32,000 bases of DNA from Neisseria sicca (GTDB taxonomy: Bacteria > Pseudomonadota > Gammaproteobacteria > Burkholderiales > Neisseriaceae): contig NZ_CP072524.1 of NCBI RefSeq assembly GCF_017753665.1, forward strand, positions 216,038-248,037, given 5' to 3'. Shown piece after piece: positions 17,251-19,308 of this stretch. Each line of letters opens with the position of its first letter. The stretch's first letter is position 1. The notes under the pieces were generated by a model that did no database searches, was not told where the DNA came from, and saw nothing but the letters and a program-made list of their open reading frames with translations. The translations under genes and the position numbers were made by a program.

Positions 17251-17691
17251 TTATACGGCCGGGATATATGCAGTATTTTCTCTGGGCAGTATAACCGATG
17301 TTGAAATTTCCGTCGGATACACGACATCAGCGGCTGTCTCTGCTGAAATTTCACCTGCCAACTCATTGTAAATTCCTTTGTCGTTTTGGAAATCAATATC
17401 GGCAACCTTGCGCCTTTCCCCGTTTTCCAAAACCACTTCTGATTCAAATAATATTTTATTATCGGCTTCATCTTTCAGATTGATTTCTGCAAAATCCAAA
17501 GAGATCGATTGGATATCCCAGTCGGACAATAGAGAAAGCTCTCCTTCCTCCGTTTTCCCGTTACTGTTTTCGTCATGCCAGATTCTTAGCTCGCCCCACA
17601 ATTCATCATATTGATTAATGATATTATTATTGTCGCTGTCCAAATCTTTCAAAGCTTCTACGCCGTTTTCTGCGCGCTTGCCGTCAGACAT
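17251..17691 (-). CDS. Hypothetical protein with EF-hand-like Ca-binding repeats; probably a truncated fragment of an RTX-type exoprotein
   Basis: 146 aa. The pattern ..NGVEALKDLDSDNNNIINQYDELWGELRIWHDENSNGKTEEGELSLLSDWDIQSISL.. matches the recurring pattern I recall in FrpC/ApxIVA-type proteins (ANGFEAL..LD.N.DG.I...D..W..L.VW.D.N.NG..E.GEL.SL...GI.SI.L). There are no GGxGxD nonapeptide repeats and no C-terminal secretion signal. It overlaps the upstream ORF by 8 nt (ATGTCTGA). Confidence 0.5.
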   Translation of the reverse strand: MSDGKRAENGVEALKDLDSDNNNIINQYDELWGELRIWHDENSNGKTEEGELSLLSDWDIQSISLDFAEINLKDEADNKILFESEVVLENGERRKVADIDFQNDKGIYNELAGEISAETAADVVYPTEISTSVILPRENTAYIPAV

Positions 17692-18124
17692 AAGCCTGTT
17701 GTTGGTTCATCGCCTTGATTGCTGCCGTATCCGATCCGTATTTGGTTTCTTTGGGATTGTTCCGCAAATCAAACTGAAAACGGTTGTATTCGGCTTTTCC
17801 TTCTTCATAAACAAATCTTCGTGCATATTCATTCGCTGTTATATTGCGATTTCCATCAATATCAAGATCAAGCTTGGAAATTGTTTTCGACAAACCATGT
17901 CCTAACTCATGAGCCCAATCAGAAGCAGTCAGATATCTTTTGTCTGCCGTACCGAATACAATACTTCTATTTTCTTTACTGCCAATTAGTTTGCTTTGGA
18001 AAAATATGCCGGAATATTTAGTGTTTGCTTGAATACTCCCTAACCCCCATTGATTGATAAAGTTATGGGTTTGCCCCAGTAAAATTGAATCCCGAATAAT
18101 CTGATTAACTTCCGAAACAGGCAT
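17684..18124 (-). CDS. Hypothetical HExxH (zincin-like) protein, long paralog
   Basis: 146 aa with HELGH encoded at 17897-17911 and no signal peptide. It is a paralog of the 18967-19308 ORF (shared blocks: TH.FIN.WGL.SI, VFG, YLTASD.AHE..HG, LDL). Its C-terminus carries an EF-hand-like LDLDIDGNRNITANE. The ancestral N-terminus appears disrupted, as described in the findings. Confidence 0.6.
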   Translation of the reverse strand: MPVSEVNQIIRDSILLGQTHNFINQWGLGSIQANTKYSGIFFQSKLIGSKENRSIVFGTADKRYLTASDWAHELGHGLSKTISKLDLDIDGNRNITANEYARRFVYEEGKAEYNRFQFDLRNNPKETKYGSDTAAIKAMNQQQAYV

Positions 18125-18199
18125 CCCTAATTTTAAAAAATGCTGCCGGATTTGTGTGTTGTAGCCATACCATATACCTTTAAAATTAAATACTATCGA

Positions 18200-18940
18200 C
18201 TATCTGATAAGAAAGATGCTGGAAATATCATTAATGCATTTGTCTGTTGGATGCTGAAATAATATTCCTGCACCTTTCTCCTCCCTTATAACCAAATGTC
18301 TATCACTCCCGATCAAATGGTTGTTTTCATCTACTGCTACTTGTTTTACTACCGTATACCTAGGAAAAACTTGTTCTGTTCCATTGTTAAAGCATACGCT
18401 GACCGGGCTTAGGATATGAGATGAAACATAGGGTTTCGGCAAATCATCAGGATAACGGTCGTCAGGAAACAATGAACGGTATCGTTTTATATAATCAGGC
18501 GTTGCTTCGATTTCTAAAAAAGTACTGCCGTCGTAGTCGGTCTGATGCACTACCGTAAAGCCGTCGGTCGGCCGTTTTAGCTTACGCCGCCTGTGTTTGA
18601 GCCATTTCTGCCGCTCTGCCTTGTCTTTCCATCTGAGTACCGCCTGTTTTTCTCCGTCAGGCCGCAAACGGCCGGAAAGCCGCAGATAGCGCCGGTACAC
18701 GGGAATCTGCCACTTTTTCGCTAAATCTTCAGGCGGCATATCAAGCAAACAGGCACTATGCAGCGTGCCGGCTATCTGTCTGAACAAATTCTCGAAGCTC
18801 TCTACAGGATAAAGCTGCCCGCAGCCCGTTGCGTCATCCGCATATGCTTGAGAAACAGAGACCGTCTGAATGCCGCTATCAGCATGAGACAAAATGGGCA
18901 GCAACATGGCCGGCCACAACAAAGCAGCTAAAAATTTCAC
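18200..18940 (-). CDS. Sec-exported hypothetical protein, paralog B (four conserved Cys)
   Basis: About 246 aa with signal peptide (M)KFLAALLWPAMLLPILSHA|DSG. The RBS aAGGAGatgagtGTG favours the GTG at 18940 over the ATG at 18946. The first ~180 codons are near-identical to paralog A and the last ~70 are divergent. Confidence 0.7.
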   Translation of the reverse strand: MKFLAALLWPAMLLPILSHADSGIQTVSVSQAYADDATGCGQLYPVESFENLFRQIAGTLHSACLLDMPPEDLAKKWQIPVYRRYLRLSGRLRPDGEKQAVLRWKDKAERQKWLKHRRRKLKRPTDGFTVVHQTDYDGSTFLEIEATPDYIKRYRSLFPDDRYPDDLPKPYVSSHILSPVSVCFNNGTEQVFPRYTVVKQVAVDENNHLIGSDRHLVIREEKGAGILFQHPTDKCINDISSIFLIR

Positions 18941-18966
18941 ACTCATCTCCTTCTTGATAAAAATTA

Positions 18967-19308
18967 TTACTTGCTAAGGTTTTTTGTTGGATTTCTCTTA
19001 TCAGCAAGATCTAGTCTATAAACAGTATCAGAAATACCATGCTCGATTTCATGGGCATAATCAGAAGCCGTAAGATAATCTTTTCCAAATACCATCTCAC
19101 GGTATTCAATGTCTCCTTTTAATTTTCTCGTTGTATAAGTGGCTGGAACATGATGATCGACACGAATACTTGATAGCCCCCATTTATTGATAAAAATATG
19201 AGTCTTTTGCATAATAACATTATCCCGCATGATGCTATCAATCTCCTTTTTAGGCATGCCCATGCGAATAAAATGCTGCCGGATTTGTGCATTTTGAACT
19301 GTTGCCAT
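18967..19308 (-). CDS. Hypothetical HExxH (zincin-like) protein, short/truncated paralog
   Basis: 113 aa with HEIEH encoded at 19039-19053. It ends (..NLSK*) exactly at the tandem-duplication junction, and its stop codon lies in the duplicated leader sequence of the next gene. Confidence 0.6.
   Translation of the reverse strand: MATVQNAQIRQHFIRMGMPKKEIDSIMRDNVIMQKTHIFINKWGLSSIRVDHHVPATYTTRKLKGDIEYREMVFGKDYLTASDYAHEIEHGISDTVYRLDLADKRNPTKNLSK

What the first reader, a model, noticed from the sequence alone, without database searches (positions are those of the whole stretch)
17684..19308. Two paralogous small proteins with an HExxH motif in a conserved YLTASD-x-AHE-xx-HG context
HEIEH (19039-19053) and HELGH (17897-17911) sit in a block conserved between otherwise diverged paralogs, which are roughly 40 percent identical by eye. 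The shared blocks are THxFINxWGLxSI, VFG, YLTASD[YW]AHExxHG and LDL. Conservation of the motif context across diverged copies argues that the motif is functional rather than accidental. The domain upstream of the motif is only about 70-85 residues, which is small for a zincin. A third zinc ligand is not obvious.
Basis: partly seen in the sequence, partly recalled or inferred. Interest (0 to 1): 0.65.

Follow-up and report, generated by a model that had tools for sequence, protein, structure and literature searches.

The report
Broken remnants of polymorphic HExxH effector gene
The two small HExxH "proteins" are broken front ends of a single 608-residue gene found in commensal Neisseria; that front end comes in swappable versions that always travel with a matching exported partner protein, which looks like a bacterial effector and its protector, but no zinc protease activity has been shown.

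Summary
HEIEH and HELGH lie exactly where stated, and the two ORFs are 46% identical (E 4e-29). However, they are not complete small proteins. Both are remnants of one 607/608-aa gene that is intact in other Neisseria. That gene has an N-terminal HExxH module, a middle domain and a C-terminal FrpC-type self-processing-module (SPM) domain (E 3e-26 to PDB 6SJW). It has Thr-Pro where FrpC has its Asp-Pro cleavage site, and it has no RTX repeats. In this window copy A stops at codon 111. Copy B has a 1-nt frameshift and a 907-bp deletion. The two alleles are 93-100% identical in DNA except for a sharply bounded cassette of about 640 bp. The cassette covers the C-terminal ~75 codons of the upstream signal-peptide protein and the first ~111 codons of the large gene, including HExxH. 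The partner genes stay intact where the large gene decays. HExxH and a downstream EEGKAE block are invariant in four lineages at about 45% identity. The predicted topology resembles a zincin, but no profile or fold match is significant. Best reading: a polymorphic FrpD/FrpC-like effector and cognate partner (immunity) module with a candidate metallopeptidase head, present here only as debris plus orphan partner genes.

The parts
19348..20097 (-). Partner gene SP-A. It encodes an exported ~248-aa protein with a Sec-type signal peptide (MKFLAALLWPAMLLPILSHA|DSG). It is intact. The conserved 5' part runs to about 19620 and the type-A variable C-terminal ~75 codons follow.
   Evidence: 97% identical to P0058 over 259 aa, no gaps. 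The signal peptide was judged by inspection.
18967..19308 (-). Type-A remnant of the large gene: codons 1-111 plus 2 junction codons and a stop. HEIEH lies at 19039-19053. The remnant lacks the invariant ANxYAR/EEGKAE helix and everything downstream.
   Evidence: Window 20191->18975 equals L002 5118-6334 at 98.9% with no gaps. From 18974 the sequence repeats the region upstream of the SP gene.
18200..18946 (-). Partner gene SP-B, intact. Its DNA is 95-100% identical to SP-A over the first ~510 nt and then ~35-50% identical.
   Evidence: 93% identical to P0057 over 257 aa
17684..18168 (-). Type-B remnant of the large gene. The original ATG is at 18168-18166. A 1-nt (G) deletion at ~18157/18156 gives MATTHKSGSIF*. 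The listed 146-aa ORF restarts at Met 18124. HELGH lies at 17897-17911. The ORF ends at a 907-bp deletion junction.
   Evidence: window 18974->17693 equals L013 2582-3864 at 97.7% with 1 gap
17693..17701 (-). Junction of the 907-bp out-of-frame deletion, which removes codons ~160-460 of the large gene. There is CAACAG microhomology at the junction. N. sicca (L005) carries the same deletion.
17251..17691 (-). C-terminal remnant (codons 462-608) of the large gene. It holds the distal two EF-hand-like loops and beta strands of the FrpC-type SPM domain, plus the 45-residue tail.
   Evidence: 98% identical to P0027 462-608. (SPM match to PDB 6sjw for the intact protein).
17179..17190 (+). AG-DUS 12-mer (AGGCCGTCTGAA) at the grxB edge of the low-GC island.
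20225..20236 (+). A second, direct copy of the AG-DUS 12-mer at the relA edge of the island.

Best explanation
Shown: the two HExxH ORFs are decayed N-terminal fragments of one gene type. Where intact, that gene encodes a 607/608-aa protein with four parts. Residues 1 to ~205 form an HExxH-bearing alpha/beta module. Residues ~225-330 form a middle domain. A coiled linker follows. Residues 398-563 form a C-terminal FrpC-type self-processing-module (SPM) domain. The gene always follows a gene for an exported ~250-aa protein (SP). Two alleles, A and B, differ only in one contiguous cassette of about 640 bp, which spans the SP C-terminal domain and the first ~111 codons of the large gene. This window carries SP-A with A(1-111), then SP-B with a frameshifted and internally deleted B. 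Both SP genes are intact. [quoted passage not shown] The large protein is an exported effector whose N-terminal head is a zincin-like metallopeptidase. Its proposed ligands are H86 and H90, with E87 as the general base and a third ligand probably among the invariant E123/E124/E128. The periplasmic SP protein neutralises the matching allele, acting as immunity. New cassettes acquired by transformation displace old ones, which persist upstream as an orphan SP gene plus a stump. In this genome the effector is dead and only the two protective SP genes are likely to function.
For: An intact 608-aa ORF exists in Neisseria sp. CP9, and intact type B exists between relA and grxB in L013/L014. The SPM match to PDB 6sjw has E=2.7e-26 and starts exactly at the residue equivalent to FrpC Pro415. 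The mosaic is seen at protein level, with A versus B ~46% identical over residues 1-112 and ~99% afterwards. It is also seen at DNA level: 93-100%, then 30-60% over ~640 bp, then 97-100%. The cassette border at residue ~112 falls in the low-confidence loop 104-106 between the two halves of the model. Orphan arrangements occur in both orders: the window, and L002/L004 with SP-B + B(1-84) + SP-A + A. SP genes stay intact while the large gene is broken in the window, L001, L005, L006, L007/8 and L015-20. The SP-plus-large-gene synteny is kept in the diverged types C and D, and type D sits at a different chromosomal site, glmU-glmS. HExxH and EEGKAE are invariant in all four types. The AlphaFold model (pLDDT 75.5, pTM 0.73) has the order helices, 3 strands, HExxH helix, long helix. 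Weak hits are enriched for zincins: M78/IrrE, M48, M34 and SprT. An unrelated protein, P0035, combines a metzincin-type HELGHxxGxxH domain with a C-terminal SPM-like domain. The literature shows FrpD binding the FrpC N-terminal domain at 0.2 nM (PMC5233953) and proposes that FrpC/FrpD is an antibacterial effector-immunity pair (PMC6759196).
Against: No zincin family is matched at threshold by sequence or fold. No third ligand is fixed at the position used by M78 enzymes. The SP protein shows no detectable similarity to FrpD, either as a single sequence or as a profile against PDB. Its structure prediction failed (pLDDT 36), so homology to FrpD is untested at fold level. The large protein has no N-terminal signal peptide and no RTX repeats, and no secretion genes lie nearby, so the export route is unknown. 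The gene order and the end carrying the variable part are the mirror image of classical polymorphic toxins. Co-variation of SP-C and the HExxH module may partly reflect physical linkage within one recombining block. Toxicity, binding and metal content are all untested.
Confidence: 0.5

Rival explanations
1. The module is an FrpD/FrpC-like anchoring or adhesion pair rather than toxin and immunity. The exported SP protein captures the secreted large protein by its N-terminal head at the cell surface. Allelic variation reflects immune or phage pressure on a surface complex. The HExxH head acts on host or matrix substrates, or is only a binding module.
For: The operon logic matches frpDC: an exported partner gene upstream, then an N-terminal domain followed by SPM. 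The FrpD-FrpC complex has been proposed to serve adhesion (PMC5233953). The hosts are oral and nasopharyngeal commensals.
Against: SP has an SPase I-type signal peptide and no lipobox, so no anchor is evident. The Asp of the Asp-Pro 'clip-and-link' site that gives FrpC its covalent attachment is replaced by Thr in all four types. Retention of SP genes without any functional large gene (window, L005, L006) is hard to explain if SP only anchors that protein.
Confidence: 0.25
2. The HExxH is conserved but not catalytic. It would be a structural or interface element of a helical binding domain, and any activity of the protein would reside in the middle domain (residues ~225-330), which is shared with a Providencia protein that lacks the HExxH head.
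For: There is no significant zincin match by profile or fold. H90 sits at the end of the predicted helix, and the next segment has low confidence. The middle domain plus SPM exists without the head in P0033.
Against: The motif and its flanks form the most conserved block inside an otherwise rapidly diverging cassette. They co-occur with an invariant acidic EEGKAE helix 33-38 residues downstream. The secondary-structure order matches the zincin core. The weak hits that do appear are disproportionately zincins.
Confidence: 0.2
3. One reading: two functional, stand-alone small paralogous zincins of 113 and 146 aa.
For: Both ORFs are open as listed, and copy A keeps its ribosome-binding site.
Against: Copy A equals codons 1-111 of a 608-aa gene, fused to a duplication junction. 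Copy B has lost its start through a 1-nt deletion and is cut by a 907-bp out-of-frame deletion. In metagenomes the intact 607/608-aa forms are the commonest clusters, with 565 and 220 members.
Confidence: 0.03

Closest known systems
FrpC / FrpD of Neisseria meningitidis (frpDC operon; SPM 'clip-and-link' RTX protein and its lipoprotein partner)
   Same: A gene for an exported partner lies immediately upstream of a protein built as N-terminal domain followed by SPM. The SPM domain is clearly homologous (E=2.7e-26 to PDB 6sjw, aligned from the Pro415 equivalent). The N-terminal region is the likely partner-binding part, shown for FrpC (PMC5233953) and inferred here from the co-varying cassette.
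   Different: There are no RTX nonapeptide repeats, and the protein ends ~45 residues after the SPM. Thr-Pro replaces the Asp-Pro scissile site. SP shows no detectable sequence similarity to FrpD and has no lipobox. The N-terminal head carries an HExxH motif and is polymorphic, with orphan cassettes. I could not test whether the N-terminal domains of FrpC and this protein are related, because no FrpC N-terminal sequence was available.
Polymorphic toxin / immunity loci with orphan modules (CdiA-CT/CdiI, Rhs-CT, MafB-CT/MafI)
   Same: A conserved backbone is joined to a sharply bounded variable module. That module co-varies with an adjacent small gene. Displaced truncated modules stay next to intact partner genes. 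Alleles are exchanged between strains and species.
   Different: The geometry is mirrored. The variable part is N-terminal, the partner gene is upstream, only the partner's C-terminal third varies, and orphans accumulate upstream. The alleles keep the same putative catalytic motif instead of swapping unrelated toxin folds. No toxicity has been shown.
Small gluzincin-type zincins: ImmA/IrrE (Pfam Peptidase_M78) and M48/M56 'minigluzincins'
   Same: HExxH lies on a helix that follows a 3-stranded sheet and N-terminal backing helices. A long downstream helix carries conserved acidic residues and an AN.[YF]A motif reminiscent of the M78 E..AN.FA helix (the motif comparison comes from my own knowledge). 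Sub-threshold hits go to M78, M48, M34 and SprT.
   Different: Nothing reaches significance in any search. The Glu that ligates zinc in M78 enzymes is not conserved at the equivalent position. The module is the head of a 608-aa exported-type protein, not a cytoplasmic regulator protease.
Smlt3024/Smlt3025 (X-Tfe/X-Tfi) of Stenotrophomonas maltophilia
   Same: This is an antibacterial effector related to the N-terminal domains of RTX proteins. It is paired with an exported immunity protein that has the FrpD fold. It is the published basis for reading FrpC/FrpD-like pairs as effector and immunity (PMC6759196).
   Different: Smlt3024 is delivered by a type IV secretion system and has no SPM. No sequence relationship to the proteins here was tested or seen.

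Membership tests
Zincin metallopeptidases (HExxH; gluzincin / M78-like) | HExxH motif conserved across homologs and located on an alpha-helix after a beta-sheet | tested here: met
   The motif is invariant in types A-D. The model has strands 48-50, 58-64 and 67-74, then helix 81-89 carrying H86 and E87, with H90 at its C-terminal end.
Zincin metallopeptidases (HExxH; gluzincin / M78-like) | Third metal ligand (Glu, His or Asp) at a family-typical position | tested here: inconclusive
   E123, E124 and E128 are invariant on helix 113-138. No acidic residue is conserved just before the AN.YAR motif, where M78 enzymes place their ligand.
Zincin metallopeptidases (HExxH; gluzincin / M78-like) | Significant profile match to a curated peptidase family | tested here: not met
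   Pfam, NCBIfam, PHROGs and PADLOC give nothing at threshold. The best hit is Peptidase_M78 at E=0.054, 13.7 bits against a cutoff of 22, for type C only. The PDB sequence profile search found nothing.
Zincin metallopeptidases (HExxH; gluzincin / M78-like) | Fold similarity to solved or predicted zincins | tested here: inconclusive
   Foldseek against PDB has a best E of 0.08, with the M48-like 3c37 at E 1.1 and the M4 peptidase 7ecc at E 2.1. Against BFVD the best E is 0.015, with several zincin-annotated hits at E 0.08-1.5 and TM 0.2-0.3.
Zincin metallopeptidases (HExxH; gluzincin / M78-like) | Zinc binding and peptidase activity | not testable with these tools
   This needs recombinant protein.
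FrpC-like SPM ('clip-and-link') RTX proteins | Self-processing module domain | tested here: met
   Residues 398-563 of the intact protein match PDB 6sjw at E=2.7e-26. PF26745 is precomputed on homologs. The window keeps only the part after codon 462.
FrpC-like SPM ('clip-and-link') RTX proteins | Asp-Pro scissile bond at the N-terminal edge of the SPM | tested here: not met
   The site is His-Thr|Pro-Leu in types A and B, Phe-Thr|Pro in C and Val-Thr|Pro in D.
FrpC-like SPM ('clip-and-link') RTX proteins | C-terminal RTX nonapeptide (GGxGxD) repeats and type I secretion | tested here: not met
   There is no GGxGxD in P0027, and the protein ends 45 residues after the SPM. No T1SS genes lie in the window or in the flanks of related loci.
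FrpC-like SPM ('clip-and-link') RTX proteins | Upstream FrpD-type partner protein | tested here: inconclusive
   An exported partner gene is always upstream. It has no sequence similarity to FrpD or any PDB chain, and its structure prediction was unusable (pLDDT 36).
Polymorphic toxin-immunity systems | Conserved region joined to a variable module at a sharp border, co-varying with an adjacent gene | tested here: met
Polymorphic toxin-immunity systems | Orphan (displaced, truncated) modules retained with intact partner genes | tested here: met
   The window has SP-A + A(1-111). L002 and L004 have SP-B + B(1-84). L006 has SP-B + 26 codons.
Polymorphic toxin-immunity systems | C-terminal toxin domain with the immunity gene immediately downstream | tested here: not met
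   The variable module is N-terminal and the partner gene is upstream.
Polymorphic toxin-immunity systems | Toxicity of the variable module and allele-specific neutralisation by the partner | not testable with these tools
   This needs expression and competition experiments.

The most novel reading that the evidence does not exclude
Commensal Neisseria carry a previously undescribed class of interbacterial effector: an RTX-less protein with a C-terminal SPM domain. Its N-terminal polymorphic zincin head is neutralised allele-specifically by the variable C-terminal domain of an exported immunity protein. Cassettes are exchanged by transformation and orphan immunity genes accumulate. If true, this would be the first genetic support for the proposal that FrpC/FrpD-type pairs are effector-immunity systems. 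It would also define a Thr/Ser-Pro subclass of SPM domains with a different, or no, processing chemistry.
Probability: 0.3. Interest if true: 0.7.

Novelty: new variant of a known kind. Interest (0 to 1): 0.5.

Why it matters
The function of FrpC and of its tight partner FrpD has been unclear for decades. An effector-immunity reading has been proposed (PMC6759196), based on one structural resemblance. This locus is a compact, RTX-less relative in which population genetics points the same way. The evidence is a sharply bounded co-varying cassette, orphan partner genes and repeated decay of the large gene. The locus also offers simple testable pairs: alleles A and B in the same backbone. The HExxH head is an uncharacterised family with only 15 hits among 1.84 billion representative proteins, and it may be a new small zincin. 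For this particular window the practical message is more modest. The two ORFs should be annotated as pseudogene fragments, and the two SP genes are the likely functional units.

Tried and rejected
I scanned the small ORFs, the SP proteins and the intact protein against Pfam, NCBIfam, PADLOC and PHROGs. Nothing reached threshold except a local ~45-residue similarity of SP to the NMB0938 lipoprotein family, far below its cutoff. PDB sequence searches with single sequences and with profiles found only the SPM. Foldseek of the 210-aa head model against PDB and BFVD found no significant match. The AlphaFold prediction of the SP protein, meant to test for an FrpD/Smlt3025 fold, failed with pLDDT 36, so I ran no fold search on it. 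An exhaustive HMM search of 1.84 billion representatives found no relatives outside this small Neisseriaceae family; the one outlier, P0024, is a repetitive artefact. I looked for type I secretion genes in the window and in flanks and found none. I considered a phage or defence-island origin and rejected it, because there are no PHROGs or PADLOC support and no integrase at the island. I considered a programmed frameshift or readthrough to explain the split genes and rejected it, because the lesions differ between loci: a 1-nt deletion, a 907-bp deletion, and nonsense codons at different positions.
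Full report
**1. What is in the window**

The finding lies in a low-GC island (41-43% GC against ~52-59% in the flanks). The island sits between a grxB-like gene (16503-17198, minus strand) and a relA-like gene (from ~20127, plus strand). Five ORFs lie on the minus strand, in this order:
- a 264-aa ORF (20142-19348)
- the 113-aa HEIEH ORF (19308-18967)
- a 248-aa ORF (18946-18200)
- the 146-aa HELGH ORF (18124-17684)
- a further 146-aa ORF (17691-17251)

The two HExxH ORFs are 46% identical over 98 aa (E=4e-29). 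The two larger ORFs are also paralogs (70% identical, E=4e-127). They are nearly identical for ~180 residues and then diverge. Both start with a Sec-type signal peptide (MKFLAALLWPAMLLPILSHA|DSG, judged by inspection); I call them SP-A and SP-B. The window contains 35 copies of the AG-mucDUS uptake sequence AGGTCGTCTGAA. That dialect is typical of N. mucosa, N. sicca and N. macacae (PMC3630211). The related loci come from N. sicca, N. mucosa and unnamed Neisseria.

**2. The small ORFs are fragments of one large gene**

Homologs of the HExxH ORFs are confined to a tiny family: 16 clusters among 5.8 billion proteins and 15 hits among 1.84 billion representatives. Longer versions exist. In Neisseria sp. 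CP9 there is a single intact 608-aa ORF (L002 6001-7827). The same protein (P0027, type A) and a 607-aa type B (P0028) are the commonest forms in metagenomes, with 565 and 220 member sequences. Simple loci with the order relA, SP-B, 607-aa gene, grxB also exist (L013/L014).

The window compares with these intact loci as follows:
- Window 20191->18975 equals L002 5118-6334 at 98.9% without gaps. Copy A therefore stops at codon 111. From 18974 the sequence restarts with the ~27 nt that precede an SP gene.
- Copy B matches L013 at 97.7%, with a single-G deletion at codon 5. This yields MATTHKSGSIF*, and the listed ORF restarts at an internal Met.
- Copy B also has a 907-bp out-of-frame deletion, flanked by CAACAG microhomology, that removes codons ~160-460.
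- The last ORF (17691-17251) is codons 462-608 of the same gene.
- N. sicca carries the same deletion.

Neither HExxH ORF in this window is a complete gene. Both SP genes are intact.

**3. Architecture of the intact protein**

Residues 398-563 match the NMR structure of the FrpC self-processing module (PDB 6sjw, E=2.7e-26). The alignment starts exactly at the residue equivalent to FrpC Pro415. The preceding residue is Thr in types A, B, C and D, not the Asp of the Asp-Pro bond that FrpC cleaves (mechanism in PMC7078468). There is no GGxGxD repeat, and the protein ends 45 residues after the SPM. A middle domain (~225-330) plus the SPM is shared with a Providencia sneebia protein that lacks the HExxH head.

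The head (P0002, 210 aa) gave an AlphaFold model with pLDDT 75.5 and pTM 0.73. Its order of elements is:
- three helices
- strands 48-50, 58-64 and 67-74
- helix 81-89, which carries H86 and E87, with H90 at its end
- helix 92-105
- a low-confidence loop at 104-106
- a long helix 113-138, followed by further helices

**4. The polymorphic cassette**

Types A and B are ~46% identical over residues 1-112 and ~99% identical from residue 113 to the end. At the DNA level, identity changes along the module as follows (the same left border is seen within the window):

| Segment | DNA identity, A versus B |
|---|---|
| First ~540 bp of the SP gene | 93-100% |
| Next ~640 bp (last ~75 SP codons, the intergenic spacer and the first ~111 codons of the large gene) | 30-60% |
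| Remainder of the large gene | 97-100% |

The right border coincides with the low-confidence loop between the two halves of the head model.

Both orders of stacking occur. The window has SP-A + A(1-111), followed by the B module. L002 and L004 have SP-B + B(1-84), followed by the A module. N. mucosa keeps SP-B with only 26 codons of the large gene.

Two more diverged lineages keep the same two-gene unit:
- Type C (L007/L008) has a 225-aa SP homolog and a large gene split into 346 + 195 aa.
- Type D (L015-L020) lies between glmU and glmS. It has a 247-aa SP homolog and a large gene with an in-frame TGA at codon 60 in all six contigs.

Across all loci the SP genes are almost always intact, whereas the large gene is often broken.

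**5. Is the HExxH a metalloprotease site?**

Evidence for:
- H86, E87, H90, the YLTAS.xAHE..H context, an AN.YAR motif and an EEGKAE block (E123, E124, E128) are invariant in four lineages at ~45% identity.
- The secondary-structure order is that of the zincin core.
- Among the weak structural and profile hits, zincins recur: M48-like 3c37 and an M4 peptidase in PDB; M34, M48, IrrE, SprT and 'peptidase' entries in BFVD; and Pfam Peptidase_M78 for type C over the span from HExxH to the AN.YAR helix (E=0.054).
- An unrelated protein, P0035, couples a metzincin-type motif to a C-terminal SPM-like domain.

Evidence against:
- None of these hits is significant.
- Types A, B and D hit no peptidase family at all.
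- No acidic residue is conserved at the position where M78 enzymes place their third ligand. This comparison rests on my own knowledge of IrrE and M78 motifs and is a lead, not a test.
- I could not measure the geometry of the model.

My verdict is that the head is a plausible but unproven zincin-like module.

**6. Most likely mechanism**

I read the unit as a polymorphic effector and cognate-partner module of the FrpD/FrpC type. Two points come from the literature. [quoted passage not shown] FrpC/FrpD has been proposed to be an antibacterial effector-immunity pair, because the immunity protein Smlt3025 has the FrpD fold (PMC6759196).

Three observations fit allele-specific binding and protection by SP:
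- The divergent block covers the C-terminal domain of the exported SP protein and the HExxH head together, and nothing else.
- Old cassettes persist as orphan SP genes with stumps of the large gene.
- SP genes outlive the large gene.

These steps are inferred, not shown. The export route is unknown, because the protein has no signal peptide and no RTX repeats, and there are no nearby secretion genes. The main rival is an anchoring or adhesion pair. The loss of the Asp-Pro site and the retention of SP genes without a partner count against that rival.

**7. Novelty and score**

The HExxH head family, the SP family and this locus appear undescribed. No family models match them, and two literature searches (the phrases 'self-processing module' and 'immunity protein' together; 'NMB0938') found nothing relevant. 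The building blocks and the logic are known, so I rate this a new variant of a known kind. As found in this window, the two ORFs are pseudogene fragments. The interest lies in the system they reveal.

Noticed in passing
window 17179-17190 and 20225-20236 (also 20428, minus strand): The low-GC island is bracketed by two direct copies of the AG-DUS 12-mer AGGCCGTCTGAA. The rest of the window uses the AG-mucDUS dialect AGGTCGTCTGAA (35 copies). This may hint that the island came by transformation from a species with a different DUS dialect.
   Followed up: partly
L002 7189-7194 (residues 397-398 of the 608-aa protein); also P0033-P0038: One subgroup of SPM-like domains has Thr-Pro or Ser-Pro instead of the Asp-Pro scissile bond. 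It lies at the C-terminus of RTX-less proteins, several of which have N-terminal signal peptides. Another RTX-less group of ~350-400 aa keeps Asp-Pro. The processing chemistry of the Thr/Ser-Pro group, if it has any, is unknown.
   Followed up: partly
L015 5178-5180 (and L016-L020): The type-D large gene carries the same in-frame TGA at codon 60 in six contigs from different samples, while the rest of the ~610-codon frame stays open. It could be a fixed nonsense mutation or possibly a recoded or readthrough codon.
   Followed up: no
window 12883-14173 and 25747-27044: There are two copies of an IS3-family element, 98% identical over 1300 bp with 11 gap positions. The first reads as a single 410-aa ORF. 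The second is split into 129-aa and 345-aa ORFs. An IS3-family element also sits next to the locus in Neisseria sp. CP9 (L002 7928-9138).
   Followed up: partly
window 11152-11258, 27255-27362, 31395-31502: There are three copies (96% identical, one inverted) of a ~107-nt element with TATAGTGGATTAA... inverted ends. By my own knowledge this is a Correia-type repeat of Neisseria.
   Followed up: partly
window 18200-18946 and 19348-20097; L007 113-790: All SP proteins share a ~45-residue segment (C..LYPV...L.....ACLLD..P..LAKKWQ.PVY) with the NCBIfam NMB0938 lipoprotein family (E 6e-7 to 8e-5, far below the family cutoff). Types A and B also carry a highly basic ~22-residue insertion that type C lacks.
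   Followed up: partly
window 30347-31299 (minus strand): Adjacent small genes encode a DUF2750 protein and a TPR protein. They lie next to a 203-aa ORF with no family match (29710-30321). I did not examine them further.
   Followed up: no
L002 7783-7827 versus L015 6780-6830: The large proteins of types A and D end similarly (…AYIPAV* and …PYPIV*) after an otherwise diverged tail. This could be a conserved C-terminal export or sorting signal.
   Followed up: no
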